From positions 1-50,467 of the forward strand of contig JBLHKL010000001.1 in assembly GCA_047618295.1 (NCBI GenBank): DNA of 50,467 bases. The letters run 5' to 3'. The position numbers and the translations under genes were made by a program. Positions 21,479 through 34,897 of the stretch are shown here, one piece after another. This stretch comes from Gammaproteobacteria bacterium (GTDB lineage: Bacteria > Pseudomonadota > Gammaproteobacteria > Eutrophobiales > Eutrophobiaceae). Under the pieces are notes generated by a model. The model was not told the origin of the DNA. It searched no databases and saw nothing but the letters and a program-made list of their open reading frames with translations. Positions within the stretch are counted from its first letter, which is position 1; every line of letters begins with the position of its first letter.

Positions 21479-21756
21479 TGATATTCGTTTTTATATTGGT
21501 TTTAGTATTAGTTAACAAGTGTCATGCTAATTACTGAATATACAAACTACATCATAAACAATAGTCCGTATTTATAATAGTTGCTCACATTATTCACTGT
21601 TAAACCACAATTATTGATAGAAACGAACATCATCTCAATCCTACCAATTAAATCTGTCGACAATATTGGTTTAGTTCTTACCTAAAGTCAATTATGCTTT
21701 TCGCCTAAGTAAAATTTACTATTTCCTGCAAAGTTAAGCTAAGCGTACAAATGAAG

Positions 21757-22581
21757 TTATTTATAATGTTGTAATATCAGAAGCTCGCCTTTTCCATTTC
21801 TGGCCAAGTCTCCTGAAAATCTATGCGCTTCGGGTCCATATTTATTGAAGAGGGCAAGGTCTTCATCAATATTTGCAAGTTGTGTGAATAATAGGCGTAA
21901 AAACTGCATCTTCAAATTGCCACAGCTTTTAAACGTTGCTGACAGGTGAGTGGGCTTTTTAGCTAGTATTATCGTGCCGCGGCGCATACCTTCTCCGGGC
22001 AGTTTACCTACTTTATCAAGGACAATTATTGTGCCTGCATGGATACGGCTGCCACAATAATTTCCGGATTTACCCTGAATTATGATTATACCGCGTCGCA
22101 TTCTATCCCCAACCCGGTCGCCCGCATTGCCTTTAATATTGATAAGGCCATTGGACATGCCAAATGAATCACCGGGTAATCCGGCACCGACATAATCACC
22201 AGCATTACCATTGATATTAATACGACCCCCAGACATGGCATTACCTACCCACGAACCCGCATTTCCAATAACCGTCAGTGTGCCATTCTTCATCCCTTGA
22301 CCTAGGAAATCACCTACATCACCGTTTATTGTAATACTACCTTGGGTCATTCCTTGACCAGCATTGATAAGCTTATCGGTGCTTTTTTCTATAACTATCT
22401 GTGACGAATCGGTGCCTTTTACGGTAAATAAAGTATCAAGCTTGACCGTTTTATTGCCATATATGATTTTTAAATTCTTTATATTTGTCAGTGTTTTGCC
22501 TTCCAGATTCTCCGGCGTTAGCTGCGCTACATCCAAAGTGAATTCAGGTTGGTTTTTCAATGTAAATACTAACGCGCTCAT
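21757..22581 (-). CDS. fhcC: Formyltransferase/hydrolase complex subunit C (FwdC homologue)
   Basis: Repeated G-x-x-G-x-x-x-G beta-helix units (GNAGSWVGNAMSGG, GNAGDYVGAG, GNAGDRVGDRMRRG) typical of FwdC/FhcC. 4-nt overlap with fhcD. Confidence 0.88.
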   Translation of the reverse strand: MSALVFTLKNQPEFTLDVAQLTPENLEGKTLTNIKNLKIIYGNKTVKLDTLFTVKGTDSSQIVIEKSTDKLINAGQGMTQGSITINGDVGDFLGQGMKNGTLTVIGNAGSWVGNAMSGGRININGNAGDYVGAGLPGDSFGMSNGLINIKGNAGDRVGDRMRRGIIIIQGKSGNYCGSRIHAGTIIVLDKVGKLPGEGMRRGTIILAKKPTHLSATFKSCGNLKMQFLRLLFTQLANIDEDLALFNKYGPEAHRFSGDLARNGKGELLILQHYK

Positions 22582-23474
22582 TTGAGTAGTTTCCTAAGGT
22601 GAAATAAATGGGGGCCTAGATTGCCTCCATAATTTCCCGCGCTGATGCGGCAAATACCCTTTGCAGGACCGAATGAGCATGCTGCCTGTATACCTAGGCG
22701 CATTGCTTTGTTTATTGAATCCTCATCAAGGCCATCGATCACGATTTCAAGCACTGACCCAATTTCATCTGTTAATTCGGATTTAACTTGGCCTTTCAAT
22801 GTAGGGCAGTATGCCTCATTGGTTGAGGCAGTAAGAAACTTATATTTTGAACCAACTTTTGAACCTGACCCAACAACACCACCCGGAAAAGCAGTTATGA
22901 CACCGGGTACTTTTTGAATTTCTTCGACAGCCTTTTCGCAAGCAGCAAGACCATGTCTAGCAGTTTTTGCCAGAACTAGAAAGTTTCCACCACCTATTGC
23001 TTTTGTCACGCCAGCTGTTTCTTCAACGATGAATTCGCCATGCATCACCGGGATGCGCCAAAAACGTCTATTGTTGACTACCTTTGATATTTGAAATCCA
23101 TCCCCAAAGAACCGAAGACTTTTACCCATAGAAACTTTTTGTTCGCTATCTAATCCTGAATAACATGCCGTTGTAGCAGTGGTCATAACTGATTGGCCAA
23201 CACGCGTTGCAACGTGTTTTTCAAGATCTTTCATCGACATAGCAAATATCATGACGGAAATACCTGGCCTTCCATCAGGTGTTTCTGATGGTTTAAGTTC
23301 TCGTTCAATATCTGCTTCAATACCACATGCTATTACTGATGATGCAAAACCGCGTATTGCATTAGCAGCACGATATGCCCACTTATGTGTCATTGCTGTG
23401 ATAATGATGCGTGTTGCTTTCATAGGGAAAGCTTCCGCAAATGTATCGTCTATCTGTACGCCGTTTATTTTCAT
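22578..23474 (-). CDS. fhcD: Formylmethanofuran:tetrahydromethanopterin N-formyltransferase (Fhc subunit D)
   Basis: About 298 aa; N-terminal IDDTFAEAF.M...R..ITA motif and a C-terminal ISAGNYGG.LG block typical of Ftr. Confidence 0.9.
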   Translation of the reverse strand: MKINGVQIDDTFAEAFPMKATRIIITAMTHKWAYRAANAIRGFASSVIACGIEADIERELKPSETPDGRPGISVMIFAMSMKDLEKHVATRVGQSVMTTATTACYSGLDSEQKVSMGKSLRFFGDGFQISKVVNNRRFWRIPVMHGEFIVEETAGVTKAIGGGNFLVLAKTARHGLAACEKAVEEIQKVPGVITAFPGGVVGSGSKVGSKYKFLTASTNEAYCPTLKGQVKSELTDEIGSVLEIVIDGLDEDSINKAMRLGIQAACSFGPAKGICRISAGNYGGNLGPHLFHLRKLLK

Positions 23475-23482
23475 AATTAATT

Positions 23483-25138
23483 TTACATACAGGGTTGTAC
23501 GATGATTTTGCCGTTACCATGCTCAACGATTTCATCATCATCAATTTTAAAATTACCCAGGCTGACGGTCTGGAAATCATTAAAATAACGTTTAAGTGAC
23601 TTTTCTATACCGTTATCATATTCTGGTCTCAATGTATGAGTAGCGCCATTGACTACTTTTACAATCTTCCCGTTACGTACAATAAGCTCACCATTTTTGA
23701 AAACGTAATCAGGCTTACTGAACATTTTTTCTTTGTCTTTGTGGTTGCTGTACACGGTGATGTCAGCAACTGCTCCGGAGCCTAAATGCCCCCGATTTTT
23801 CAAGCCGAGACTTCTTGCCGGTGCAGCTCGAGTCATAATTGCGATATCGTATAAGGAATATTCTCTATCAATACTTGCGAGCGTACTTGCCGCAGCGGCT
23901 TCTTTATTAATAGTAGAGAGCATGTCATTTCTGAAGCTTCTATCCATTAATAAACGTATTAGATGCGGGTAGCTTGTGAATGGTGCGCCGTTAGGATGAT
24001 CTGTTGTCAGAAAAACTCTCCAGGGATCATCGACAAGTAAAAATATTTCGAGACCTATAGCCCATTGCAATGCATTTACAAAGTTTTTGTCTCTGTATTT
24101 AAAAGGCACAACTCCACAACCCGCGTCACACTCAATGTCCATAATGACCCATTTTTTCGGGTCTGCATGCCAGTGCCCAGCATATTGGTGTTGGGAATCG
24201 CCTGAAGCAGTGACAGTCTGGCCAAATAAAATTTGTCCGACATCAATAGAAATGTTCGGATTTTTATTGACGGCTTCAGCTATCTCGGCAGCACCGGATG
24301 AAAAGTTTTTATCGCCTTCGGTTCCGTAGCTGTGAAACTGAATATGAGTAAGATGCATGCGCATACCATCAACAGCACGTATGGTCTCCAGTGTAGTATT
24401 GAGATTGCCGGGAACACCAAGATTACAGCCATGCACATGTAGAGGATGTGGTATGCCTAATTCTGTAACTGCTCTGGCGAGAGACTTAAGAATGTCACGC
24501 GGAGATACACCGTAATATTGATTTAATTCATCTAATTCAAGTTTACGCTGGTTAAATTTAAAGGCACTTATGCCGCCCGGGTTAACTACTTTGATTCCGA
24601 GTGCCTGCGTAGCATTGATTGTCCAACCAACATAGTCACTGATAGCGGCTTGGTCTTTTTTTGATGCGAGCATGCGTAAAAAGAAATCATCACTGCCAAG
24701 CATGGCATAGGCACCTTTGTCGACCATGGGTGTGTCGGCCATTTCCATGTGTGTTTGACGAGCGTTGGAAGGTAGCATTGCTGGTTCAAAACATGCGGTG
24801 TAACCCATTTCAGCATAACGATAACCCGCAGTCAGCGTAGAGGGAGCTGCGTAACCACAGCCGGAACGCGTCAGTTCTGTTTTCTCGACCAAATCTGCCG
24901 CATGATCTTCAGGCAACATCATGCGAGCTATATTGATCTTGCCTCCACCTATGTGAGTATGAATATCAATGGCGCCGGCCATGATGATTTTGTCTTTCAT
25001 GTCATAGGTTTTGCTGATTGTTGCATTACCCGAAGGCTTACGTGTTATATGACCGTCATTAATATATATGTCCCTGTGCTCTCCATTAATGCCATGGACA
25101 GGGTCATAAACAATACCGTTAGTTAATTTTATATACAT
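23483..25138 (-). CDS. fhcA: Formyltransferase/hydrolase complex subunit A (FwdA-like amidohydrolase)
   Basis: Amidohydrolase metal site (AIDIHTHIGG), HVHGCNLG, HLTHIQFHSYG, TTDHPNG blocks. 551 aa. Confidence 0.9.
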   Translation of the reverse strand: MYIKLTNGIVYDPVHGINGEHRDIYINDGHITRKPSGNATISKTYDMKDKIIMAGAIDIHTHIGGGKINIARMMLPEDHAADLVEKTELTRSGCGYAAPSTLTAGYRYAEMGYTACFEPAMLPSNARQTHMEMADTPMVDKGAYAMLGSDDFFLRMLASKKDQAAISDYVGWTINATQALGIKVVNPGGISAFKFNQRKLELDELNQYYGVSPRDILKSLARAVTELGIPHPLHVHGCNLGVPGNLNTTLETIRAVDGMRMHLTHIQFHSYGTEGDKNFSSGAAEIAEAVNKNPNISIDVGQILFGQTVTASGDSQHQYAGHWHADPKKWVIMDIECDAGCGVVPFKYRDKNFVNALQWAIGLEIFLLVDDPWRVFLTTDHPNGAPFTSYPHLIRLLMDRSFRNDMLSTINKEAAAASTLASIDREYSLYDIAIMTRAAPARSLGLKNRGHLGSGAVADITVYSNHKDKEKMFSKPDYVFKNGELIVRNGKIVKVVNGATHTLRPEYDNGIEKSLKRYFNDFQTVSLGNFKIDDDEIVEHGNGKIIVQPCM

Positions 25139-25147
25139 TCGTTCTGT

Positions 25148-26425
25148 CTACATCCCTTCTATAACTTGTTTCAGAATTAAACTGACATTGGCATACGGAG
25201 ACTGCCTTAGTTTTTTTAATGGAAGTGATACCACACTGTCAGTGCGAATCAACTGTCCTGAATGGTCAACTCCCGGGGTTGATACCGGAATAAAAACATC
25301 GGGTTTAAAGTTTAATTTAGTATCAGGTGTGCCGAGTACTATTGTTGGTATTGATGCATGAGGTGGTTTCACATTTGAACTAAAGCTTGAAACCCATAAC
25401 AGGGAATCGACATCTTTATTTTTAAGCACGTTTTGTGTTGAATACCGTTGGGCATCATAATCAGGATAACCTTTATTAAAGTTAACACGTAATGGATAGC
25501 CACTTTGCCATGCACAAACGCTATTCGCACTTGTTGCGCCATCGTCACCCCCTAATGAAAACCCAGCAAAACGAGTAAAGCGTGTTAAATATTTAACAAT
25601 TTCACAGAAATTTTGAATTGTAAGTTCGGCATGAGGAATATCTAGTTCGGCTGGAGACCAGACAATAACGCCATATTTAGCCGTCTTCATTTGCTCAGCT
25701 AAAGATTGTAGTGTCTTAATTTTTATTCCAGCTATTTCATTTACATCAAGTGTTGCGCCTGTTACCAGCGCATGCAGACCTGATATGACTTCGCCTATCT
25801 GTTCAGTTTTGCAATTGAGAGTCGTGGGACGTTTACCATTGGGATTTATCCCGGCTTTACTATCAAGTTGATCACCGATGTACACAATTTGGCGCTGCTC
25901 ATTCTTGAGCTTAAACATGGATTGTTTATTCCATATGGTACGTTCGAAAAATCGTGGAAAATTTGTTGCGTCAGTGCCGGCAAAAATAATTAAATCTGCA
26001 CGGTTTCTGATTTCGCTCATGGTCGTTGTGATCCAGCCGAGATCCTGCAATACAAGTGAGTTACGGATAAGTGCATTACCATGCATGTGGTCAACTATGG
26101 CACCGGTTTTATCTGCAAGATGCATTACTTGTCGCATTCCACCAACATCAGTACCAAGACCAGCAAATAATGGGTTATGTGACTTTTTGAGAATGACACA
26201 TATTGCATTTATCGCATCTGAAAGAGGGGCATTGTTACCGTTTATTTTTGGAGAATCTGTCGCTTGTTTAGATTCAAAAGAGGAGACTGCTTTGGGACAG
26301 CCATTTTCAAGTATCTTTAGTGTCTCATCCTTATTTTGGATAACCAAATCATCACACAGTATCCCACAGAAAGGACAGGTCACATCCTTGTTGATGACAC
26401 TAGAAATATTTGATGTTTTTTCCAA
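25148..26425 (-). CDS. fhcB: Formyltransferase/hydrolase complex subunit B (FwdB homologue lacking pterin active-site residues)
   Basis: N-terminal CPFCGILCDD...GCP cluster motif and overall FwdB fold blocks (EIRNRADLIIF, WQSGYP). The catalytic Cys-His is replaced by Met-His (VDHMHGN, Met codon 26084..26086) and the RGH block by LGGDDG. TTG start with an AAGGAG RBS. Confidence 0.85.
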   Translation of the reverse strand: MEKTSNISSVINKDVTCPFCGILCDDLVIQNKDETLKILENGCPKAVSSFESKQATDSPKINGNNAPLSDAINAICVILKKSHNPLFAGLGTDVGGMRQVMHLADKTGAIVDHMHGNALIRNSLVLQDLGWITTTMSEIRNRADLIIFAGTDATNFPRFFERTIWNKQSMFKLKNEQRQIVYIGDQLDSKAGINPNGKRPTTLNCKTEQIGEVISGLHALVTGATLDVNEIAGIKIKTLQSLAEQMKTAKYGVIVWSPAELDIPHAELTIQNFCEIVKYLTRFTRFAGFSLGGDDGATSANSVCAWQSGYPLRVNFNKGYPDYDAQRYSTQNVLKNKDVDSLLWVSSFSSNVKPPHASIPTIVLGTPDTKLNFKPDVFIPVSTPGVDHSGQLIRTDSVVSLPLKKLRQSPYANVSLILKQVIEGM

Positions 26426-26598
26426 TGATAACTCCTTAAGTTTTCAATCAATGATAATTTACGAAATGCAAAAAAAATGAGCAACAGTAACAGCATAGCT
26501 TACAGCCATTAACGGTGCATCATTATCAACAATTAATATTACTGAACTTGAAGGTGTATATTTGCGAAAATGTTGTGCGGTATCAGAAAGATATTATA

Positions 26599-27981
26599 TT
26601 ATTCTGTAACTGACAACATTTCATCAATATAGGTGTATTTCTCTCTAGGTTTCCCTTTGGGTTCTCCACGCTCAATTTCTTTAGCGTCTATCTTCTTCCA
26701 ATCATCATAACTCACATGATGAATGTTCTTACTTTCTAAAACTGTAAATATCGCGTTAGCACCTGATTTCTTACTACCATCATCCAACTTTGTTAGATCT
26801 TGTATTAGACAAGCAACGGTTTCAACACTGCAAGCTCGATTTGTGCCAATTATGCCACTAGGCCCACGTTTAATCCAACCCGCGGTATAAAATTGTGGAA
26901 CGATATTGTTATCATTATCAGTAACCCTGCCTTTTTCATTAGGGATGGTGCCCCAACTTTCATGAAATGGCACTCCCGCAATGGGGACACCTCGATAGCC
27001 GATGCTCCGAAACAAAATACCACTTTCAAGTTCTATTGTTTCTCCTGTACCTCTGGCAGATTGTTTAAAAGGTTCTCCGGATAAGCCATTTTTTTCAAGC
27101 ACGACTTTTTCTAATCTAGAATCGCCAACTAGTTCTTTGGGGCCCATTAAAAATCTGAAAAAACATTTTTTTGATTTACTACTGTCAATATCACGTTTAG
27201 AAAAATCGCAAAATAGATCGTAGATTTTTTTACTGGCGACATTACTTTTTTCTTCTAATTCTTTTTCGCTTTCTGGATTAAGGATAATATCTTCTGGAAG
27301 CACGATAGGGCTGCAATCTGCTAGTTCACCAAATTCACGTAACTCTTTAGGTGTCAATTTAGCTTGTGCAGGTCCACGTCTGCCAATGACATGTATTTCC
27401 TTTATCTTACTTTCAGCAAGTGTGTCTAGTGCGTGTTGTGCGATATCAGTATGCTTTAATTCATCGACAGTTTTAGACAATATTCTACTGACATCAGCAG
27501 CAACATTTCCTTGTCCGATAATGACTGCGACATCATGCGAAAGATCAAATTCACGATCACGATAGTCAGGGTGGCCATTATACCAACCGACAAATTCTGT
27601 AGCCGTATAACTGCCTTTTAAATCTTCACCAGGGACACCTAACTTACGGTCTGACTCTGCGCCGCAAGTAAAGATAACAGCGTGATGAGATTCACATAAC
27701 TCGTTAACGGTAATATCTGTTCCGACTGTTACATTGGCTATCAAATTGAAATCGGGTGATGCAGCAATTTTTTCATATAGCTTGATTGCTTGTTTCAATT
27801 TTTGATGATCTGGCGCAACACCGCTTCGGACTAGACCGAATGGAGAAGGTAAGCGTTCGAGTATATCTACCTTAATTGTGATATCAGATTTAAGCAGGGC
27901 CTCTGCGGCATAAAAACCACTGGGGCCGCTGCCAACGATGGCGACTAATAGTGGGTTTTGTTCAGTTCCAAGTGATGACAT
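26599..27981 (-). CDS. FprA/adrenodoxin-reductase-type NADPH:ferredoxin oxidoreductase
   Basis: VAIVGSGPSGFYAAEALL FAD motif, GLVRSGVAPDH, FVGWYNGHP, IIGQGNVAADVSRIL NADP motif, GWIKRGPSGIIGTN: collinear with Mycobacterium FprA (about 456 aa). Confidence 0.85.
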   Translation of the reverse strand: MSSLGTEQNPLLVAIVGSGPSGFYAAEALLKSDITIKVDILERLPSPFGLVRSGVAPDHQKLKQAIKLYEKIAASPDFNLIANVTVGTDITVNELCESHHAVIFTCGAESDRKLGVPGEDLKGSYTATEFVGWYNGHPDYRDREFDLSHDVAVIIGQGNVAADVSRILSKTVDELKHTDIAQHALDTLAESKIKEIHVIGRRGPAQAKLTPKELREFGELADCSPIVLPEDIILNPESEKELEEKSNVASKKIYDLFCDFSKRDIDSSKSKKCFFRFLMGPKELVGDSRLEKVVLEKNGLSGEPFKQSARGTGETIELESGILFRSIGYRGVPIAGVPFHESWGTIPNEKGRVTDNDNNIVPQFYTAGWIKRGPSGIIGTNRACSVETVACLIQDLTKLDDGSKKSGANAIFTVLESKNIHHVSYDDWKKIDAKEIERGEPKGKPREKYTYIDEMLSVTE

Positions 27982-27989
27982 TATAAGAA

Positions 27990-28295
27990 TTAAAAGCCTA
28001 ATTCGGACTTACGCTCTTCAGCGCCGGGCAGAGGATCCATTTGTTCTTCACAAACTGGCAGGTCAGGTGCTTTTTCAGCATTGATCTCAATCCATTTTTC
28101 TTGATCTTCCGGGATATCATCTCCTTCAAAGATGGCCTGGACAGGACATTCTGGTATGCATGCACTGCAGTCAATACAAACATCCGGGTCGATATACAGC
28201 ATTTCATCATCATAATGAAAGCAGGCGACAGGACAGACTGTTACACAATCAGTAAAACGGCAGCTTTTACAGTTCTCAGTTACGATTGTTGTCAT
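27990..28295 (-). CDS. fdxA: 7Fe-type ferredoxin (Azotobacter FdI / FdxA family)
   Basis: Cys spacing CxxCxxxxCxxxCP ... CxxCxxCxxxCP (ENCKSCRFTDCVTVCP; CIDCSACIPECP), and overall collinearity with A. vinelandii FdI including the PEDQEKWIEINAE tail. 8-nt gap to the reductase gene. Confidence 0.88.
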   Translation of the reverse strand: MTTIVTENCKSCRFTDCVTVCPVACFHYDDEMLYIDPDVCIDCSACIPECPVQAIFEGDDIPEDQEKWIEINAEKAPDLPVCEEQMDPLPGAEERKSELGF

Positions 28296-28352
28296 CGTTT
28301 CCTCCTTTAGCCATTAAAGGCATTTCTTTTAGTGATAAATATTAATTTTGTG

Positions 28353-29165
28353 TTACTTACCCGCGTACAATAAAATTTCACCTCGGTTTAATTCAATCGA
28401 GTCTCCGCACCAACGTTCGAAGGGGCTATTCATTAATGAATCACTGATTGTGAGTCCAAGTGATTGTAAATATTTAAAATAGTGACGAAGAAATAAAGGT
28501 TGATAATCACAACTTTTACTAAAAGTTGGCAATAGCTCAGTTTTAGTCTGACAAATGATTGAACCGCGTTTCATTCCCGCACCAGGACGAATACCCATCT
28601 CTCCAAGTACAATAATTGTACCAGCGAGCATGTTTACACCCGTAAAGTCACCTGAGTTGCCACCGACGACAATTAAGCCACGTCGCATAACATGGCCGGT
28701 TTCATTTTTTACATTGCCATGCACAATGATTTCTCCACCTTGCATACCAATAGTACTGCCGCGGTAACCACTACCGACCATGTGGCCTGCATTACCTTTA
28801 ATGGTAATCTTGCCACCAAGCATTTCCGGACCTACCCAATCAGAGGCATCACCCTCGATGATTATTTCACCTCCACTCATGGCAGCACCGGTATGGACAC
28901 CGACATTACCTGAGACAGTGATTTTTCCAAAGGACATGGACGAAGCTATGTGCTTTACATCTACTAAATCACCTTCAATATTTATCTCACCATCAAATTC
29001 ACCACTACATTCAAAGAAATCTTTGAGTGGAACTTGGCGGTTACCATGAAATACGGTTAGGTTTTCTATTTCAGTTGTACTGAGTGATTGCATTCGGTCG
29101 GGACAAATACAGTCCGCTTCCAAAGGTACTTCGGGTTTAGTATGTAGTTTTAATTTGAGAGCCAT
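28353..29165 (-). CDS. fwdC: Formylmethanofuran dehydrogenase subunit C homologue (second copy)
   Basis: The same Gly-rich beta-helix repeats (GNVGVHTGAAMSGG, GDASDWVGPEMLGG, GNAGHMVGSGYRG, GNSGDFTGVNMLAG). Clearly diverged from the 21757..22581 copy. Confidence 0.85.
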   Translation of the reverse strand: MALKLKLHTKPEVPLEADCICPDRMQSLSTTEIENLTVFHGNRQVPLKDFFECSGEFDGEINIEGDLVDVKHIASSMSFGKITVSGNVGVHTGAAMSGGEIIIEGDASDWVGPEMLGGKITIKGNAGHMVGSGYRGSTIGMQGGEIIVHGNVKNETGHVMRRGLIVVGGNSGDFTGVNMLAGTIIVLGEMGIRPGAGMKRGSIICQTKTELLPTFSKSCDYQPLFLRHYFKYLQSLGLTISDSLMNSPFERWCGDSIELNRGEILLYAGK

Positions 29166-29168
29166 TCG

Positions 29169-30080
29169 TTAAGTTTCCCCACTCCAATCTTTCGAGGCCA
29201 AGAGCTGATGTAAATGCATATGATATTGACCAAGCCCACCACCATAATTACCCGCTGATATTTTCTTAATGCCAGGTTTAGCTGCAGCGATTGCGCCAAC
29301 ACGCATCGCTTGTTCTACTGCCTCTAGTGTTAAACCATCGATAACGATTTCAAGAACACTATTAATACCATCATCTAGCTCAGAGTTTTCTACCACGCCA
29401 CGCAGTGTTGGGCAGTACGCATCATTTGTAGAAGCAATCAATTTTTTATATTTAGAACCGACCTTACTACCGCTGCGAACAACCCCATTAGGGAAGGGAA
29501 GGATGATGTCGGTTAATTCACGCATTGCTTTTGTCGCAGCACTTGCTGCCTTCAATGTCGCTTTTTGATCTTTACCTAAAATTAATAAATTACCACCACC
29601 GACAGATTCTTGAACATTAAACTTATCGTCAACTAGGAACTCACCATCCATGACAGGGATACGCCATAGTTTCGAACCTCCAAGTACCTTGCTGATTTGA
29701 TGACCGTCGCCAAAGTAGCGCAATTGACCACCGACGATAACAGGCAAGCCTTCGGCTAAGCCGTTATAACAAGCAGTCGTAGGACAGGTCATAACACATT
29801 GACCAATGCGTTCCATTAAACGTTTGCCCAGGCTTTCAGCATCCATGGCAAAGATTAAAACGCTTACTCCCGGTCTTAGATCAGGAGAGTCCTTAGCATC
29901 AATAATAGCTTCTATTCCAGCTTCACATTTACAACCAATGACGGAGGTTGCAAAACCAGTTATTGATTGTGCTGCCGCCATGGCCCATTCTTTTGACTCT
30001 GCAGTAATGATGACGCGACTGCCATACATCTTGAAGGCTTCGGCAAAGGTATCGACAATAGTTGTTGATTTGATCTTCAT
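29169..30080 (-). CDS. ftr: Formylmethanofuran:tetrahydromethanopterin N-formyltransferase (second copy)
   Basis: VDTFAEAFKMYGSRVIITA..., RSGSKVGSKYK, ISAGNYGGGLG blocks. Paralogous to, but diverged from, fhcD. Confidence 0.88.
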   Translation of the reverse strand: MKIKSTTIVDTFAEAFKMYGSRVIITAESKEWAMAAAQSITGFATSVIGCKCEAGIEAIIDAKDSPDLRPGVSVLIFAMDAESLGKRLMERIGQCVMTCPTTACYNGLAEGLPVIVGGQLRYFGDGHQISKVLGGSKLWRIPVMDGEFLVDDKFNVQESVGGGNLLILGKDQKATLKAASAATKAMRELTDIILPFPNGVVRSGSKVGSKYKKLIASTNDAYCPTLRGVVENSELDDGINSVLEIVIDGLTLEAVEQAMRVGAIAAAKPGIKKISAGNYGGGLGQYHMHLHQLLASKDWSGET

Positions 30081-30082
30081 AG

Positions 30083-31723
30083 CTATGCCTTTCCTGTTGC
30101 TATGATTTCATGGTCATGAAGATAGCTATCATCTACTGCATAATTAGAAAATTCGATTGAATAATAACTTTCGAAGAAGGGTTGCACGACTTCTTCAATT
30201 TTCTTGTCATATTCGGGTGTGATATGTAAGAGTTTGCCGATGAAATCAGTAATAAACTCATGATTGCCTATGATGGTATTTCCTGACTTGATGACGTAAC
30301 GCGGGGCATTAAACATCATCTCTTTATCATCCATTTCATCGTATATTGTTATATCGGCATCTGCACCAACACCTAAATGACCTTTGTTTTTTAAACCTAA
30401 GGCTCTAGCAGGACCTGCTCTTGTAATAATAGCGATTTCGTTCAAGGTAAATTCACGATCTAAATCGCGCAGTGAACAATTCTCCAATGCGCTTTGATTG
30501 ACGCGTTTCATTTCTTCATGACGGAATGCCTTATCCATCAGCAGTTTAATGAGCTTGGGATAATTCATGAACGAGCCGCCGTTAGGGTGGTCTGTCGATA
30601 AAACCACTCGCCAAGGATCTTTTGCCATTAAGAATATTTCAAGACCAATTGCCCACTGCAGGGTGTGCATATAAATGTGTTCTTGATAGTTGAAAGGGAG
30701 GATCCCGCAGCCACTTTCACATTCTGTATCTGCATTAACCCATTTGCCTTTGGTATGCCCCTTTAAAACATAAGCCAATGGTGCATCAGCTGTCATGATA
30801 GTCGACTTACCAAACATAACCTGACCGACATCACAGGTGATGTTCGGATGGTTATCAACGTACTCAACAATTTCCGCAGCTTTAGAAATCGGTTGCTTGC
30901 CCAGTTCGCCGCCATAACTATGAAACTGGATATGGGCAATATGGGCGCGCATATCCCCGGCTGTTTTCATTGTTTCCAGTGTGGTTTTATAGTTGCCACT
31001 ATGACCCAGGTTGTTGCAGTGGATATGCGGTGGGTGAGGAAAGCCTTGTTTGTCAACGGACGTTATAAACGCTTCAATAATTTGGCGTGGCGTCAGGCCT
31101 TCATCTGTTTTTTCATCGATGTCAGAGACATTTGAGTTTTTCTTACCTTTCCAGGGTTCATCACCACCGGGATTAACTAATTTTACCGTATAAGCCTTTG
31201 TTGCATTGATCCACCAGGCCACGGCCTGATCAAACTCTTCCATACGCTTTTCACGCAGTAGATTCTGCAGGAATATATTTTCGCCAAGTAAGACATAAAA
31301 ACCTTTGTCAATGACAGGAGTATCGTGAAATTCTTCAAGCGTGTGTCTCGCACCAATGGGAGTTACAGCTGCTTCCATTGCTGTTGTGTAACCCAAGGTT
31401 GCATAGCGATACCCGGTAGCAAATGTAGAGGGAACTGTGCCGCCTGTACCTGACCGTGTGAAGGGTGTTCCGGGATGCACATCATGACGATGATCTTCAG
31501 GCTGAAGTTTTCTTGCTACGTTTACTTTGGGGCCAGCAATGTGGCAATGGATGTCAACACCACCCGGCATAATGACCATGCCTTGTGCGTCAATAACGGT
31601 TGCATCTTCAGGAACAGAATCGACTATTCTGCCGTCCTGAATGCAGATTTCTTTTATCTTGCCATCTATATTATTGGCAGGGTCATAGACTTTGCCATTT
31701 ACGATGCGCATAACTGCTGACAT
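30083..31723 (-). CDS. fwdA: Formylmethanofuran dehydrogenase subunit A (amidohydrolase; second copy)
   Basis: GVDIHCHIAG, HIHCNNLG, HIAHIQFHSYG, STDHPNG blocks. The track start is a GTG at 31726; the ATG at 31723 has better spacing to the AGGGG RBS. Confidence 0.88.
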   Translation of the reverse strand: MSAVMRIVNGKVYDPANNIDGKIKEICIQDGRIVDSVPEDATVIDAQGMVIMPGGVDIHCHIAGPKVNVARKLQPEDHRHDVHPGTPFTRSGTGGTVPSTFATGYRYATLGYTTAMEAAVTPIGARHTLEEFHDTPVIDKGFYVLLGENIFLQNLLREKRMEEFDQAVAWWINATKAYTVKLVNPGGDEPWKGKKNSNVSDIDEKTDEGLTPRQIIEAFITSVDKQGFPHPPHIHCNNLGHSGNYKTTLETMKTAGDMRAHIAHIQFHSYGGELGKQPISKAAEIVEYVDNHPNITCDVGQVMFGKSTIMTADAPLAYVLKGHTKGKWVNADTECESGCGILPFNYQEHIYMHTLQWAIGLEIFLMAKDPWRVVLSTDHPNGGSFMNYPKLIKLLMDKAFRHEEMKRVNQSALENCSLRDLDREFTLNEIAIITRAGPARALGLKNKGHLGVGADADITIYDEMDDKEMMFNAPRYVIKSGNTIIGNHEFITDFIGKLLHITPEYDKKIEEVVQPFFESYYSIEFSNYAVDDSYLHDHEIIATGKA

Positions 31724-31945
31724 CACATACCCCTAAATATTATCGTTATATTTTAATGAGTAATTTTACGACGGCAGCAACCTGCAATTTTTTAATCAAA
31801 ATACTATTAGTTATTAAAACAAATAACAGTTTATATTAATGATTAGTACTTATTTTCTCGTAAATGGTCTCAATTTATTTCTAAAAATTACACTACAAAA
31901 ACACTATAGTTTATGCAGGACTAAAATTAAAGTGACGCTTGCCTT

Positions 31946-33307
31946 TTAAATAGGGGCAGCCACTTTTACTGCGCCGCTAGCACCACTTGCATAGTGTTTA
32001 GCTAACATTAATTCATTCACTCTTTTATTTATACCCTTTAAAATCGTTTCGTCATCTGGAAACGGAGATTCAAATGCCGGACGCAAGGTTATCGGCACAT
32101 TATCCATTCTGTATACGGTTCCAGTTGTATTGATACCGTAGGTAGAAGTGCGGAACGCGACATGTGCATCTTTACTGGTTTCAGTACATTTAGTGTCGAG
32201 CACAACTATGGGAATATTTTTTAAATGTGCAATCGCTTTCTTGGGAAAATTAGATGCGGGGTCACTTGCAATGAACATTGCTGCATCGGCATGGCCATTT
32301 GCCAAGGTGTCGACTGTCGTGAATTCACCTGGATTAAAACGGGGATAACCACGACTAAAATTAACGCCAAAGGGATAACCTGTCTGCCAAGAGACAACAT
32401 TGTCAGCACCAGTGACATTGCCGTGACCACGCACGGGCATGGCAACAAAATGAGTGAATTCGTTTAGATCAGTTGCCAGAGCGAGTAGGGCGCCTGAGTT
32501 GAAATGGCGACCACGTGTCATGGTCAGGCCCATACCAAAGAAGAGCACACCAAATCGGCAGTTCTTCATGCGGTCGCTTAGATCTTGTAACACTTCCAGA
32601 GGAACACCGGTACGTTCTTCAATGTCATCTGATAATTTTTTACCTTTGACCAATGCGCGTAAAGCCCATAAAACTTCAAAATCTTTCCCTGGTTTCGGTC
32701 GAATCAGGATGTCGGCAACGGGAGAGCTTTTTGTCTTGCGCACATCAATAAGTACTATTGTGCGATCTTTTTTACCGCGAGGGGTAAACATGCCTTTCGG
32801 AGTTACGGCGTAACGACCAAAATGACGGGGATGCGATTCAGCAGGGTTACCACCCCAATAGATAACTAAATCAGCTCTATTTTTAACTTCGCCCAAAGTA
32901 CTGGTACTTTCGCCCACACCTTGGAATGCCAGGCCGGATGGGCCATGACAGACAGAAGTTGTGGTATCGATGTTGCCTTTGATTCTATCCGTGATTGCAA
33001 CAGCTTGGCGTTGAGCTTCGCATGTTGTATCACTCAGGCCATAGGTAATGGGAAATTTTGCTTTGGTTAGTGTTTGTGCTGCTTCTTCTATGGCTTCTTC
33101 GACTGAGACTTCTTTGCCATCAATCATCGCTGCTGGAGCGCCTTCTTCTATCGTATGTTCCGCGAACCATGCACGCCCGAGAACGCAGGCATTTTTAGAT
33201 TTTATGATTTTCTTCTCGTCGAGATCGACAGTTAGAATCATGTCATCGCAGACACAGCCGCAAAAGGTGCACGTTGCATTTTCAATGATCTTGGTATTTT
33301 CGGTCAT
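31946..33307 (-). CDS. fwdB: Formylmethanofuran dehydrogenase subunit B, archaeal-like with intact pterin active-site residues
   Basis: N-terminal Cys cluster (CTFCGCVCDD...NACV). DTTTSVCHGPSG with Cys120-His121 (codons 32945..32950). GEVKNRADLVIYWGGNP..HPRH. MPVRGHGNVTG (Arg293). WQTGYPFGVNF. From memory, closely collinear with Methanothermobacter FwdB. Confidence 0.85.
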   Translation of the reverse strand: MTENTKIIENATCTFCGCVCDDMILTVDLDEKKIIKSKNACVLGRAWFAEHTIEEGAPAAMIDGKEVSVEEAIEEAAQTLTKAKFPITYGLSDTTCEAQRQAVAITDRIKGNIDTTTSVCHGPSGLAFQGVGESTSTLGEVKNRADLVIYWGGNPAESHPRHFGRYAVTPKGMFTPRGKKDRTIVLIDVRKTKSSPVADILIRPKPGKDFEVLWALRALVKGKKLSDDIEERTGVPLEVLQDLSDRMKNCRFGVLFFGMGLTMTRGRHFNSGALLALATDLNEFTHFVAMPVRGHGNVTGADNVVSWQTGYPFGVNFSRGYPRFNPGEFTTVDTLANGHADAAMFIASDPASNFPKKAIAHLKNIPIVVLDTKCTETSKDAHVAFRTSTYGINTTGTVYRMDNVPITLRPAFESPFPDDETILKGINKRVNELMLAKHYASGASGAVKVAAPI

Positions 33308-33346
33308 AGTAACTATTACACCTAAATCGAAAAATATATTGTTAGT

Positions 33347-33694
33347 TTAAGTTGTGATTTTCTCAATTTCAACTTCCATGTGCTTAGATAATGGCATACC
33401 AGAGCCTGCCGTGTCACTAGCCATTAATTCGCTTGAAGGTGGTCCATAAGGAATAAACAACATGCCATCGGGTAAATCCTCTGGTTTTTTACCAATACAA
33501 GTTACTGTTGTTTCACCAATTTCATTGCTGAGACGAACTTTATCGCCATCGACAAGCCCCCTTTTTGCCATTTCATCTGTATTCATTTCCAGAGTTGATG
33601 TGACTTGTTTGTATTCCTCCTTGAGTTTGCCTATGTTTAGGCTCGTTCCCTGTTTAGCAGAACGACCTGGAATTAGGATCATCTTTTCTGACAC
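33347..33694 (-). CDS. fwdD: Formylmethanofuran dehydrogenase subunit D (molybdopterin-dinucleotide-binding barrel)
   Basis: 115 aa. Pattern ...GR..KQG......K.EY......L.MN..DM.K.GL.DGDKV.L....GE..V.......P.GM.FIPYGP....L....T.GSGMP..K...VE.E matches archaeal FwdD/FmdD. GTG start 6 nt after an AAGGAG RBS. Confidence 0.8.
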   Translation of the reverse strand: MSEKMILIPGRSAKQGTSLNIGKLKEEYKQVTSTLEMNTDEMAKRGLVDGDKVRLSNEIGETTVTCIGKKPEDLPDGMLFIPYGPPSSELMASDTAGSGMPLSKHMEVEIEKITT

Positions 33695-33722
33695 ATTTTT
33701 CTCCTTGTTTGTTTCTCGCCTG

Positions 33723-33752
33723 ATTATAGTCTGGAGTATTGCATAAGGACAA
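33723..33752 (-). promoter_or_regulatory. Candidate sigma70 promoter for fwdD-fwdB
   Basis: On the minus strand: TTGTCC (33752..33747), an 18-nt spacer, then a perfect TATAAT (33728..33723), about 30 nt upstream of the fwdD start. Pattern match only. Confidence 0.35.
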
Positions 33753-33868
33753 ACAGATGCGCTATATGACTAATTTCTTAGGCAGAACGCTGTTTCAGCG
33801 CTGTCGCATACAGTACAATAGATCGTTTTGCATAATTCAAAATTGGATACAAGAATTTCCGAATAACA

Positions 33869-34897
33869 ATGGATAATAAACAATCAATAAGCAAATCGAG
33901 GCAGGTGAGTGTTAATGCACCTGCTAGATTACATCTAGGGTTTCTCGATCTGCATGGGGGACTTGGAAGAAAATTTGGTAGTTTGGGGCTGTCTATTAAG
34001 GATGTTGAAACCTCGCTCACAGCAGAATATGCCGACGATATTGACGTGACTGGTCCTTCCGCTAAACGAGCAGAGGATTATGCGGAACAAGTATTGTCCC
34101 ATTTTGGGATTAATGGCGGGGTTAAAATGACGATTAAGTCTGCTATACCTGAACACTCCGGCTTAGGTTCAGGGACGCAATTGTCATTAGCTGTAGCTTC
34201 GGCTATCTCCAACTTATACGAATTATCTGAACAACACCCCAATCGACTTGCTGCGGTCTTACATCGAGGGGCTCGTTCAGGGATCGGTATTGGCACCTTT
34301 ATGCATGGCGGGTTTATAATCGATGGTGGTCGAGGAGAGAATACTGACGTTCCCCCGGTTATCAGTCATATGTCTTTTCCGGACAATTGGCGGATCGTAT
34401 TAATATTTGATGATGCAGCAGAAGGTATTAATGGCGTGCCAGAACGACGAGCGTTTAATACCTTGCCGCCAATGGATGATGTAATGTCAGGTTTGCTATG
34501 CAGATTGACATTGATGCAAGTGTTGCCGGCTATTAGAGAAAAAGATTGTAAACAATTTGGGGAAGCAATTACTCAGATTCAAAATATTGTTGGCGACTAT
34601 TTTGCTGTTGCTCAGGGAGGCCGTTATACCTCGCCTTTTCTTAAGCCTATTCTTGACTCTATGAAGAACAGCGGCGCGACTGGGATGGGACAAAGTTCCT
34701 GGGGGCCAACCGGCTTTGCATTTTTCCCTGATGAGACACTGGCATTTCAAGCAATGAAAAAAGTTCGTGAGGAGTGGCAATCAGAATCAAGACTACGTTT
34801 TGTCATGAGTGAGGCCTGTAATTCCAAAGCAAAAATTATATTAAATGATCTGAACACACCAACACAAAACGAAAACTTGAAAGTAACAAATTTATAA
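33869..34897 (+). CDS. mptG: Beta-ribofuranosylaminobenzene 5'-phosphate (RFAP) synthase, first committed step of H4MPT biosynthesis
   Basis: GHMP-kinase-like fold with the characteristic N-terminus VNAPARLHLGFLDLHGGLGRKFGSLG and the PEHSGLGSGTQL motif. Divergent from fwdD. Confidence 0.85.
   Translation: MDNKQSISKSRQVSVNAPARLHLGFLDLHGGLGRKFGSLGLSIKDVETSLTAEYADDIDVTGPSAKRAEDYAEQVLSHFGINGGVKMTIKSAIPEHSGLGSGTQLSLAVASAISNLYELSEQHPNRLAAVLHRGARSGIGIGTFMHGGFIIDGGRGENTDVPPVISHMSFPDNWRIVLIFDDAAEGINGVPERRAFNTLPPMDDVMSGLLCRLTLMQVLPAIREKDCKQFGEAITQIQNIVGDYFAVAQGGRYTSPFLKPILDSMKNSGATGMGQSSWGPTGFAFFPDETLAFQAMKKVREEWQSESRLRFVMSEACNSKAKIILNDLNTPTQNENLKVTNL

What the first reader, a model, noticed from the sequence alone, without database searches (positions are those of the whole stretch)
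26599..28295. 7Fe ferredoxin + FprA-type ferredoxin-NADP reductase pair wedged between the two Fhc/Fwd clusters: candidate electron outlet
fdxA starts 57 nt after the fwdC-like gene, and the reductase starts 8 nt after fdxA. All are on the same strand, so both are probably co-transcribed with fwdA-ftr-fwdC. Archaeal Fwd uses polyferredoxin subunits (FwdF/G), and these are absent here. A soluble low-potential Azotobacter-FdI-type ferredoxin plus an adrenodoxin-reductase-type NADPH oxidoreductase is a plausible replacement. The resulting chain would be formyl-MFR -> CO2, 2e- -> Fdx -> NADP+. It would yield NADPH from the last C1 oxidation step without free formate or FDH. The Fwd + FdxA + FprA combination looks like a self-contained module.
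Basis: inference. Interest (0 to 1): 0.7.

Follow-up and report, generated by a model that had tools for sequence, protein, structure and literature searches.

The report
Ferredoxin–NADP reductase pair in Fwd operon
An uncultured marine methanol-oxidising bacterium carries a seven-gene unit in which a catalytically intact, archaeal-type formylmethanofuran dehydrogenase is followed by a small ferredoxin and an NADPH-ferredoxin reductase, which probably lets the last step of one-carbon oxidation make NADPH directly instead of going through free formate.

Summary
On the minus strand, fdxA (27990-28295, 7Fe Azotobacter-FdI type) and fprA (26599-27981, Mycobacterium FprA/adrenodoxin-reductase type) follow fwdC after 57 nt and 8 nt.

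They close a unit fwdD-fwdB-fwdA-ftr-fwdC-fdxA-fprA.
- This FwdB keeps the [4Fe-4S] cysteines and the Cys-His and Arg of the Mo/W site, and FwdD is present.
- The downstream FhcB has lost the catalytic residues.
- FdxA is the only stand-alone ferredoxin in the 50 kb window.

In 80 species-level genomes of uncultured Gammaproteobacteria with FprA 60-92% identical:
- fdxA sits directly upstream of fprA in 76 of 77 loci.
- The full seven-gene order is kept in 60 of 64 loci.
- Half of the loci have no Fhc cluster behind the unit.
- FprA and FwdB distances co-vary as tightly as those of two Fwd subunits.

Elsewhere the same pair sits beside 2-oxoacid:ferredoxin oxidoreductase or a monomeric molybdopterin enzyme, so it looks like a portable Fd/NADP(H) coupler.

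Catalytically intact Fwd clusters in Planctomycetes lack the pair. A few Fhc-type clusters carry FprA alone.

No biochemistry or expression data exist. I rate it a new variant of a known kind, of moderately high interest.

The parts
33723..33752 (-). Best sigma-70-like promoter match (TTGTCC-18-TATAAT, 10 of 12), upstream of fwdD in the divergent intergenic region
   Evidence: It is a consensus match only, and the number of matches in the region is not above the shuffles.
33347..33694 (-). fwdD: the molybdopterin-capping 'fourth domain' subunit (115 aa)
   Evidence: NCBIfam FwdD E = 4e-21, 75 bits, below the archaeal cut-off of 175. Present in 60 of 64 related loci.
31946..33307 (-). fwdB: catalytic Mo/W-bis-pterin subunit. 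It keeps the N-terminal [4Fe-4S] cysteines (C13, C16, C20, C41), Cys120-His121 and Arg293.
   Evidence: TIGR03129 505 bits. E = 8e-110 to M. wolfeii FwdB 5T5I_B, with SVCHGPS and RGHxNVTG aligned. 62 of 62 full-length orthologues keep all of these residues.
31727..31945 (-). fwdB-fwdA intergenic region with two invariant blocks (TGAGACCATTTACGAGAA and TCGTAAAATTACTCA...) that can pair
   Evidence: No Rfam family matches. Function unknown.
30083..31726 (-). fwdA/fhcA: amidohydrolase subunit (formyl-MFR hydrolysis/synthesis site)
   Evidence: TIGR03121 693 bits; Pfam Amidohydro_3
29169..30080 (-). ftr/fhcD: formylmethanofuran:H4MPT formyltransferase
   Evidence: Pfam FTR and FTR_C; TIGR03119 411 bits
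28353..29165 (-). fwdC/fhcC: beta-helix GXGXG scaffold subunit
   Evidence: TIGR03122 267 bits
28296..28352 (-). 57-nt spacer with a conserved GAGGAGGAAACG Shine-Dalgarno sequence before the fdxA ATG; no terminator-like element
27990..28295 (-). fdxA: 7Fe ([3Fe-4S][4Fe-4S]) ferredoxin of the Azotobacter FdI type
   Evidence: It lies directly upstream of fprA in 76 of 77 loci.
26599..27981 (-). fprA: FAD-containing NADPH:ferredoxin oxidoreductase of the FprA/adrenodoxin-reductase family. Motifs: GSGPSG at residues 17-22, GQGNVA at 156-161, GRRGP at 200-204.

Best explanation
The seven genes fwdD-fwdB-fwdA-ftr-fwdC-fdxA-fprA form one functional unit, probably one transcript starting upstream of fwdD.

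Proposed chemistry:
- FwdDBAC plus Ftr is a bacterial, cysteine-type Mo/W formylmethanofuran dehydrogenase with the formyltransferase built in, as in Fhc.
- It takes the formyl group from formyl-H4MPT to the furan cofactor and hydrolyses it at FwdA.
- It then oxidises the resulting formate at the FwdB/FwdD metallopterin site to CO2.

Proposed electron path:
- The two electrons leave through the FwdB [4Fe-4S] cluster to FdxA. FdxA stands in for the archaeal FwdG/FwdF ferredoxin subunits.
- FprA re-oxidises FdxA and reduces NADP+.
- Net reaction: formyl-H4MPT + H2O + NADP+ -> CO2 + H4MPT + NADPH + H+, with no free formate.

What is shown:
- The identities of all seven proteins.
- Intact catalytic and cluster-binding residues.
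- NADP-type motifs in FprA.
- Absence of any other ferredoxin in the window.
- Strict conservation and co-variation of the unit.

What is inferred:
- Co-transcription.
- The physical FwdB-FdxA contact.
- The direction of electron flow, which rests on redox potentials: formyl-MFR/CO2 about -530 mV, the FdI-type [3Fe-4S] cluster about -420 mV, NADP+ -320 mV.
For: Identity of the parts:
-.
- FwdB1 keeps the features that separate Fwd from Fhc: Cys118/His119/Arg288 equivalents, the N-terminal [4Fe-4S] domain, and FwdD present. The criteria come from PMC6926001. They were tested (62 of 62 orthologues).
- FhcB2 and all its orthologues lack the catalytic residues.
- No other stand-alone ferredoxin is in the window.

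Synteny:
- fdxA lies directly upstream of fprA in 76 of 77 loci.
- The full unit is present in 60 of 64 loci.
- 31 of 66 loci have unrelated genes after fprA.
- A further 15 metagenome loci carry the complete unit, and three short contigs carry its fwdC-fdxA-fprA end. Three loci in all (L056, L103, L107) have the order fdxA-fprA-fwdD..., so linkage survived rearrangement.

Co-variation (Mantel tests over 61 loci):
- FprA vs FwdB r = 0.81; FdxA vs FwdB r = 0.77.
- The control, FwdB vs FwdA, gives r = 0.82.

The pair as a portable ferredoxin/NADP(H) coupler:
- It precedes a three-gene 2-oxoacid:ferredoxin oxidoreductase in L071, L077, L091 and L096.
- It follows MoaA beside a monomeric [4Fe-4S]-molybdopterin oxidoreductase in L141; L132 and L136 show the same tblastn pattern.

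Published background:
- Fd-FNR fusions (FprB, FdxB) and FprA-ferredoxin electron transfer are documented in M. tuberculosis (PMC6208970).
- An alternative electron module on an Fmd working in the oxidative direction has a precedent, the F420-reducing Fmd (PMC11656701).
- That review also gives the formyl-MFR/CO2 potential as about -0.53 V.

Operon signals:
- There is a strong conserved Shine-Dalgarno sequence before fdxA.
- No terminator-like site lies in either spacer.
Against: - No expression or biochemical data exist. The promoter and terminator scans are uninformative, since their counts do not exceed the shuffles.
- Catalytically intact Fwd clusters in Planctomycetes and in a marine FwdD-FwdB fusion lineage (63-67% identical FwdB) have no fdxA or fprA within 10 kb. 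Fwd does not in general need this pair.
- FprA without FdxA sits inside or beside Fhc-type clusters whose FhcB lacks the Mo/W site (L080, L109, L118, L128). The outlet model does not explain this.
- Characterised FprA and adrenodoxin reductases normally run NADPH -> ferredoxin.
- FdxA scores below NCBIfam's curated FdxA cut-offs (112 vs 135 bits, and 51 vs 65 bits).
- The [4Fe-4S] cluster of FdI-type ferredoxins is very low-potential (own knowledge), so only the [3Fe-4S] cluster may be useful.
- The Mantel correlation would also arise from plain vertical inheritance of unlinked genes.
Confidence: 0.6

Rival explanations
1. The pair is a general-purpose NADPH -> ferredoxin supply system, as for P450s, radical-SAM enzymes or Fe-S enzymes. 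It happens to be parked at the end of the fwd operon, and Fwd hands its electrons to something else, for example the NuoE/F-like FdsB encoded downstream, or an unlinked acceptor.
For: - The same pair occurs in unrelated contexts: acyl-CoA synthetase, SDR and flavin monooxygenase genes in L117 and L129.
- FprA singletons at 49-60% identity have no Fwd nearby.
- Characterised FprA enzymes act as NADPH-driven ferredoxin reductases (PMC6208970).
- Planctomycete Fwd clusters manage without the pair.
- An FdsB-like NuoEF protein lies downstream in the window.
Against: - Linkage to the catalytically intact Fwd cluster holds in 60 of 64 genomes, across up to 46% FprA divergence, and survives gene-order changes.
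- 31 of 66 loci have neither FDH nor Fhc genes behind the unit.
- FdxA is the only candidate carrier for the FwdB cluster in the window.
- The other recurrent partners are themselves ferredoxin-linked enzymes.
Confidence: 0.2
2. Electrons flow the other way: NADPH -> FprA -> FdxA -> FwdB. This would either drive CO2 reduction to formyl-MFR, or reductively activate or repair the oxygen-exposed Mo/W-pterin and Fe-S centres of Fwd in an aerobe.
For: - NADPH -> ferredoxin is the usual direction for FprA and adrenodoxin reductases.
- Archaeal Fwd works reductively.
- Several carriers of the unit are labelled as sulfur-oxidiser-like symbionts, e.g. 'Ca. Porisulfidus'. In such organisms C1 oxidation is not an obvious need.
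Against: - NADPH (-320 mV) cannot drive CO2 reduction at about -530 mV without bifurcation, and FprA has no extra clusters or second flavin.
- The window is a methanol-oxidation island: a PQQ methanol/ethanol-family dehydrogenase, a MoxJ-like protein, fae, mch and FDH. This argues for the oxidative direction.
- An activation role is possible but does not explain the strict stoichiometric linkage.
Confidence: 0.1
3. FprA has a role in the H4MPT/methanofuran pathway that does not depend on the FwdB metallopterin site. Examples would be reducing a cofactor precursor, or servicing the [4Fe-4S] cluster that even the non-catalytic FhcB proteins keep. FdxA would be an optional adaptor.
For: - FprA alone lies between ftr and fhcC, or directly upstream of an Fhc-type fhcB, in the high-GC loci L080, L109 and L118.
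- FprA persists next to the Fhc cluster in L128 and L065, where cluster 1 is missing.
- All Fhc-type FhcB proteins in these lineages keep the four cluster cysteines.
Against: - These are 5 of about 160 loci.
- No reductase of this family is known in H4MPT or methanofuran biosynthesis (own knowledge).
- In L128 an ABC-efflux insertion replaced cluster 1, which looks like decay rather than design.
- The dominant pattern ties both genes to the catalytic FwdB.
Confidence: 0.1

Closest known systems
Archaeal tungsten/molybdenum formylmethanofuran dehydrogenase (FwdABCDFG, M. wolfeii, PDB 5T5I)
   Same: FwdB is full-length with E = 8e-110. It has the same [4Fe-4S] motif, catalytic Cys-His and Arg. 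FwdD, FwdA and FwdC are present.
   Different: - No FwdF or FwdG polyferredoxin.
- Ftr is encoded inside the cluster, as in bacterial Fhc.
- A 7Fe ferredoxin and an FAD reductase take the place of the electron module.
- The host is an aerobic methylotroph, so the expected direction is oxidative.
Bacterial formyltransferase/hydrolase complex (FhcABCD, Methylorubrum extorquens, PDB 6S6Y)
   Same: Same gene set and order logic (B-A-D-C) with the formyltransferase integrated. A copy of this kind lies directly downstream at 21757-26425.
   Different: Fhc releases formate. Its FhcB lacks Cys/His/Arg, the [4Fe-4S] domain and FwdD (PMC6926001). The upstream cluster here has all of these.
F420-reducing Fmd of 'Ca. 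Ethanoperedens thermophilum'
   Same: An Fmd/Fwd working in the CO2-forming direction, with a non-canonical, electronically connected reductase as the outlet (PMC11656701).
   Different: The acceptor there is F420, through a dedicated reductase, in an anaerobic archaeon. Here the proposed acceptor is NADP+, through a 7Fe ferredoxin and an FprA-type flavoprotein, in bacteria.
M. tuberculosis FprA with 7Fe ferredoxins, and the Fd-FNR fusion FprB (Rv0886)
   Same: Same reductase family (E = 7e-104) and the same ferredoxin class. Pairing of the two is documented, and they occur fused in FprB.
   Different: The mycobacterial systems are thought to run NADPH -> Fd towards P450s and other acceptors, and they are not linked to C1 enzymes.
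Azotobacter vinelandii ferredoxin I (FdxA)
   Same: Same length class, the same eight-cysteine 7Fe pattern and a DUF3470-type C-terminus. E = 1.5e-29.
   Different: It falls below the curated proteobacterial FdxA equivalog score (112 vs 135 bits). It is a diverged, operon-embedded paralogue rather than the housekeeping copy.

Membership tests
FprA / adrenodoxin reductase family (NADPH:ferredoxin oxidoreductase) | Full-length similarity to solved members (1LQT, 1CJC) | tested here: met
   E = 7e-104 (residues 9-457) and E = 5e-94
FprA / adrenodoxin reductase family (NADPH:ferredoxin oxidoreductase) | N-terminal FAD GxGxxG motif, a second dinucleotide fold, and the Arg-Arg pair that binds the 2'-phosphate of NADP (GRRGP) | tested here: met
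   GSGPSG at 17-22, GQGNVA at 156-161 and GRRGP at 200-204, aligned to the same motifs of 1LQT. That the Arg pair binds the 2'-phosphate is from my own knowledge of the FprA structure.
FprA / adrenodoxin reductase family (NADPH:ferredoxin oxidoreductase) | NADP(H)-dependent electron exchange with a ferredoxin | not testable with these tools
   Needs an enzyme assay
7Fe (FdI-type) ferredoxin FdxA | Cysteine pattern CxxCxxxxCxxxCP ... CxxCxxCxxxCP for one [3Fe-4S] and one [4Fe-4S] cluster | tested here: met
   C9, C12, C17, C21-P, C25 ... C40, C43, C46, C50-P. Aligned residue by residue to FdI.
7Fe (FdI-type) ferredoxin FdxA | Score above NCBIfam's curated FdxA cut-offs | tested here: not met
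   FdxA_Protbact 112.4 bits vs 135; FdxA_fam 51.1 vs 65. It is a diverged member by structure-sequence match, not the curated equivalog.
Formylmethanofuran dehydrogenase (Fwd/Fmd), catalytically competent | FwdB with the metal-ligand Cys/Sec, the adjacent His and the conserved Arg (M. wolfeii Cys118, His119, Arg288) | tested here: met
   C120, H121 and R293 in the window FwdB. 62 of 62 orthologues keep them.
Formylmethanofuran dehydrogenase (Fwd/Fmd), catalytically competent | N-terminal [4Fe-4S] domain of FwdB | tested here: met
   C13, C16, C20 and C41 aligned to CPFCGTLCDD...NAC of 5T5I_B
Formylmethanofuran dehydrogenase (Fwd/Fmd), catalytically competent | FwdD capping subunit present | tested here: met
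   115-aa ORF at 33347-33694; FwdD model E = 4e-21, below the archaeal exception cut-off
Formylmethanofuran dehydrogenase (Fwd/Fmd), catalytically competent | FwdF/FwdG polyferredoxin electron module | tested here: not met
   No such ORF in the 50 kb window or in the conserved unit of the related loci
Formylmethanofuran dehydrogenase (Fwd/Fmd), catalytically competent | Bound Mo or W bis-pterin, and formyl-MFR dehydrogenase activity | not testable with these tools
   Needs metal analysis and an enzyme assay
Formyltransferase/hydrolase complex (Fhc), considered for the upstream cluster | FhcB without the Mo/W ligands and without FwdD | tested here: not met
   The upstream cluster has the ligands and FwdD. 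The downstream cluster (25148-26425) does fit Fhc on this point, although it keeps the four cluster cysteines.

The most novel reading that the evidence does not exclude
FdxA and FprA are fixed subunits of a seven-protein bacterial enzyme. It would be the first pyridine-nucleotide-linked formylmethanofuran dehydrogenase, oxidising formyl-H4MPT to CO2 and releasing NADPH without free formate. In the many genomes where the unit stands alone, it would replace the textbook Fhc + formate dehydrogenase route of aerobic methylotrophs. By extension, the FdxA-FprA cassette would be a general adaptor through which aerobic Gammaproteobacteria connect low-potential enzymes (Fwd, 2-oxoacid:ferredoxin oxidoreductase, monomeric molybdopterin enzymes) to the NADP pool.
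Probability: 0.35. Interest if true: 0.75.

Novelty: new variant of a known kind. Interest (0 to 1): 0.62.

Why it matters
The accepted picture is that aerobic methylotrophic bacteria lost the dehydrogenase function of the archaeal enzyme. On that view they release formate through Fhc and then need a separate formate dehydrogenase. A 2016 overview states that fwdD is absent from Proteobacteria (PMC5020050).

This locus changes that picture in three ways:
- A catalytically intact Fwd is conserved in dozens of uncultured marine and symbiotic Gammaproteobacteria.
- It always comes with the same ferredoxin and NADPH reductase.
- It often has no Fhc cluster beside it.

If the chain works as proposed, it changes the redox bookkeeping of C1 oxidation in these organisms: NADPH instead of NADH, and no formate pool. 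It would add a new kind of electron module to the Fwd/Fmd enzyme family. It would also give a compact, oxygen-exposed, NADP-linked CO2/formyl-carrier enzyme of interest for C1 biotechnology. The hypothesis can be tested directly with seven genes.

Tried and rejected
- **Promoter and terminator scan of 21400-34000.** Counts were not above the shuffles, so it neither proves nor disproves co-transcription.
- **Rfam on the whole window.** No family matched, so no Moco or other riboswitch explains the regulation.
- **Exact look-up of the window's FprA.** The closest genome is 'Thiotrichaceae bacterium UBA973'.
- **The listing of cluster members.** It gave no organism names, and no cultured carrier was identified.
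- **Nearest FwdB representatives outside the clade.** The first four look-ups hit short contigs with little context. A second homologue search was needed to reach long planctomycete contigs.
- **Spearman correlation of identities to the window.** It was contaminated by paralogue cross-hits, so I replaced it with Mantel tests on orthologue alignments.
- **An Fdx-FprA fusion in L080.** Rejected. The long ORF was a wrong-frame artefact of a 72% GC contig, and no ferredoxin motif occurs in that locus.
- **A small ORF in the fwdB-fwdA gap.** Rejected. Only two short plus-strand ORFs lie there. The conservation is at nucleotide level.
- **Six literature searches.** None found a description of an Fwd + FdxA + FprA module.
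Full report
**1. Observation**

The finding's coordinates are exact, but every gene involved is on the minus strand.
- The fwdC-like gene is 28353-29165, fdxA is 27990-28295 and fprA is 26599-27981.

The 101-aa product has the cysteine pattern of a 7Fe ferredoxin. It aligns over residues 4-94 with Azotobacter vinelandii ferredoxin I at E = 1.5e-29.

The 460-aa product aligns end to end with Mycobacterium tuberculosis FprA (1LQT, E = 7e-104) and with adrenodoxin reductase (1CJC, E = 5e-94). It carries the FAD motif GSGPSG, the second dinucleotide fold GQGNVA and the GRRGP motif. In FprA the Arg pair of that motif holds the 2'-phosphate of NADP (own knowledge of the structure).

**2. Surroundings**

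In the direction of transcription the minus strand reads as follows:

| Gene | Coordinates |
|---|---|
| fwdD | 33694-33347 |
| fwdB | 33307-31946 |
| fwdA | 31726-30083 |
| ftr | 30080-29169 |
| fwdC | 29165-28353 |
| fdxA | 28295-27990 |
| fprA | 27981-26599 |
| 173-nt gap | |
| fhcB, fhcA, fhcD, fhcC | 26425-21757 |
| 278-nt gap | |
| NuoE/F-like fdsB | 21478-19817 |
| formate dehydrogenase alpha subunit | 19817-17007 |

- Divergently on the plus strand lie H4MPT and methanofuran biosynthesis genes, mch and fae.
- Further upstream lie a PQQ methanol/ethanol-family dehydrogenase, a pseudoazurin-like protein and a MoxJ-like protein.

The window is therefore a methanol-oxidation island of an AT-rich organism (about 40% G+C). 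The closest genome is an uncultured 'Thiotrichaceae bacterium UBA973'.

**3. The two clusters are not equivalent**

The features that separate a working Fwd from the bacterial Fhc scaffold are set out in PMC6926001. They are Cys118, His119 and Arg288 of FwdB, its N-terminal [4Fe-4S] domain, and the presence of FwdD.
- The upstream FwdB has all of them: C13/C16/C20/C41, C120-H121 and R293. Its match to 5T5I_B has E = 8e-110. A FwdD gene precedes it.
- The downstream FhcB keeps the four cluster cysteines but has lost Cys, His and Arg.

The upstream cluster thus encodes a catalytically intact, cysteine-type Mo/W formylmethanofuran dehydrogenase with Ftr built in. The downstream one is an Fhc-type formate-releasing complex that feeds the adjacent FDH.

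No FwdF/G-type polyferredoxin exists in the window. The only two CxxCxxCxxxCP motifs in six frames are FdxA and the Fer4 domain of FdsA.

**4.

A scan of one genome per species with an FprA alignment returned 80 loci with 60-92% identical FprA. All come from uncultured, mostly gammaproteobacterial MAGs. tblastn with the window's proteins gave these counts:

| Measure | Result |
|---|---|
| fdxA directly upstream of fprA | 76 of 77 loci |
| Full order fwdD-fwdB-fwdA-ftr-fwdC-fdxA-fprA on one strand (loci with at least 6 kb upstream) | 60 of 64 loci |
| Downstream of fprA: an Fhc-type cluster | 33 of 66 loci |
| Downstream of fprA: unrelated genes | 31 of 66 loci |

- The unrelated downstream genes include cysteinyl-tRNA synthetase, a chromate transporter and others.
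- The conserved unit therefore ends at fprA and is independent of the Fhc cluster.
- All 62 full-length cluster-1 FwdB proteins keep every catalytic and cluster residue. Every cluster-2 FhcB lacks the catalytic ones.

Pairwise distance matrices over 61 loci correlate as strongly between FprA and FwdB (r = 0.81) or FdxA and FwdB (r = 0.77) as between FwdB and FwdA (r = 0.82). This fits co-inheritance as one unit, although vertical inheritance alone would also produce it.

**5. A second, independent sample**

A metagenome scan seeded with a differently linked FprA gave the following:
- Fifteen further loci carry the complete unit, and three short contigs (L105, L108, L114) carry its fwdC-fdxA-fprA end.
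- Two of those fifteen (L103, L107), together with L056 from the genome set, have the order fdxA-fprA-fwdD-fwdB-fwdA-ftr-fwdC. Linkage survived a rearrangement.

**6. What the pair does elsewhere**

- In L071, L077, L091 and L096, fdxA-fprA is followed by a three-gene 2-oxoacid:ferredoxin oxidoreductase (Fer4_21; POR_N + PFOR_II; TPP_enzyme_C).
- In L141 the pair follows MoaA, next to a 735-aa monomeric molybdopterin oxidoreductase with an N-terminal Fe4S4 domain. L132 and L136 show the same tblastn pattern, an FdsA-like hit on the opposite strand upstream of the pair.
- In L117 and L129 it sits among acyl-CoA synthetase, SDR and flavin monooxygenase or reductase genes.
- FprA homologues at 49-60% identity are often alone.

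The pair is therefore a portable ferredoxin/NADP(H) coupler. It recurs beside enzymes that either reduce ferredoxin or have a lone [4Fe-4S] entry point. This matches the mycobacterial literature, where FprA exchanges electrons with 3Fe and 7Fe ferredoxins and where FprB and FdxB are Fd-FNR fusions (PMC6208970).

**7. Limits and exceptions**

- The nearest FwdB relatives outside the clade are planctomycete proteins and FwdD-FwdB fusions.
- In L085 (Pirellulales), L086/L087 (marine metagenome, FwdB 67% identical) and L088 (Pirellulaceae), the catalytic residues are intact. L088 also carries two MoeA genes, a MobA-like gene, FwdD and an aldehyde:ferredoxin oxidoreductase.
- None of these loci has fdxA or fprA within 10 kb. 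The pair is a clade-specific addition, and the acceptor of those other bacterial Fwd enzymes is unknown.
- In three high-GC loci (L080, L109, L118), FprA without FdxA lies inside or beside an Fhc-type cluster with a non-catalytic FhcB.
- In L065 and L128 cluster 1 is missing while FprA remains. L128 has an ABC-efflux insertion in its place.

The outlet model does not account for the FprA-only clusters.

**8. Transcription**

- The best promoter-like match (10 of 12) lies upstream of fwdD at 33752-33723.
- No terminator-like element lies in either spacer or after fprA.
- A conserved GAGGAGGAAACG precedes the fdxA start codon.
- The 8-nt fdxA-fprA spacer suggests translational coupling.
- The scan counts do not exceed the shuffles, so co-transcription is likely but not shown.
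- In relatives the fdxA-fprA spacer ranges from about 3 to about 530 nt.

**9. Mechanism**

The best-supported reading is as follows.
- The FwdDBAC/Ftr complex oxidises the formyl group of formyl-H4MPT to CO2 via the furan cofactor.
- Electrons pass from the metallopterin to the FwdB [4Fe-4S] cluster, and from there to FdxA. FdxA has the same two-cluster fold class as FwdG; the weak match to 5T5I_G has E = 0.001.
- FprA re-oxidises FdxA and forms NADPH.

The direction follows from the potentials:
- formyl-MFR/CO2 is about -0.53 V (PMC11656701);
- the FdI-type [3Fe-4S] cluster is about -0.42 V and NADP+ is -0.32 V (own knowledge).

It also follows from the methylotrophic context. An alternative outlet on an oxidatively working Fmd has a precedent in the F420-reducing enzyme of an ethane oxidiser. 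I put 0.6 on the full chain. Rivals are listed separately.

**10. Novelty**

- A 2016 overview states that fwdD is not present in Proteobacteria (PMC5020050).
- A 2023 survey notes bacterial FwdB homologues but says nothing about their partners (PMC10100899).
- A symbiont study of the related Methylophagaceae clade lists only fhcABCD and FDH (PMC10199937).
- Six full-text searches found no description of an Fwd + FdxA + FprA unit.

Each component belongs to a known family. The combination, and the implied NADP-linked formylmethanofuran dehydrogenase, is a new variant of a known kind.

**11. Verdict**

Interest 0.62.

Noticed in passing
window 31727-31945 (minus strand), between fwdB and fwdA: The 219-nt spacer holds two blocks that are invariant across eight loci whose flanking intergenic sequence varies: TGAGACCATTTACGAGAA and TCGTAAAATTACTCATAAAAATATAAC.ATAATATTTAGGGG. 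TGAG/CTCA and TTTACGA/TCGTAAA are reverse complements about 100 nt apart. RNAalifold pairs them (11 invariant pairs, no covariation). No Rfam family matches. It may be an internal regulatory element or an operator pair.
   Followed up: partly
window 25148-26425 (minus strand) and cluster-2 FhcB in about 32 related loci: The non-catalytic FhcB proteins all keep the four N-terminal [4Fe-4S] cysteines, although they lack the Mo/W-site Cys, His and Arg. The structurally characterised M. extorquens FhcB lacks that domain altogether. An iron-sulfur cluster in a 'scaffold' subunit is unexplained.
   Followed up: partly
L080 10001-11359; L109 8001-9353; L118 1155-2507: In three high-GC (70-73%) contigs, one labelled Gemmatimonadales, an FprA 60-65% identical to those of the Fwd- and OFOR-linked pairs lies inside or directly beside an Fhc-type cluster. 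No ferredoxin gene was detected on the contig. In L109 and L118 the FhcB has the signature CCCC-PA-R, so the Arg is retained.
   Followed up: partly
L071 1605-6931; L077 6197-11598; L091 621-5967; L096 2-4977: fdxA-fprA is immediately followed by a three-gene 2-oxoacid:ferredoxin oxidoreductase in Acidiferrobacterales-like and other contigs. This suggests an NADP-linked OFOR system in aerobes.
   Followed up: partly
L141 4158-9374 (similar tblastn pattern in L132 and L136): A 735-aa monomeric molybdopterin oxidoreductase (Fe4S4 + Molybdopterin + Molydop_binding domains) lies divergent from moaA-fdxA-fprA. This is another lone [4Fe-4S]-molybdoenzyme paired with the same redox couple.
   Followed up: partly
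L088 4011-15524 (Pirellulaceae); L085, L086, L087: Planctomycete and marine contigs carry catalytically intact FwdB with separate or N-terminally fused FwdD. In L088 it sits next to two MoeA genes, a MobA-like gene and an aldehyde:ferredoxin oxidoreductase. This contrasts with the published statement that fwdD is absent from Planctomycetes and Proteobacteria. No electron-acceptor gene is evident.
   Followed up: partly
window 12451-16101 (plus strand): A PQQ methanol/ethanol-family dehydrogenase (645 aa) is followed by a pseudoazurin-like protein and a MoxJ-like binding protein. A blue-copper protein in the position usually held by a cytochrome c partner would be unusual.
   Followed up: no
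L095 1966-2265: A second, more distant fdxA-like gene (50% identical) lies upstream of fwdD, in addition to the regular fdxA before fprA.
   Followed up: no
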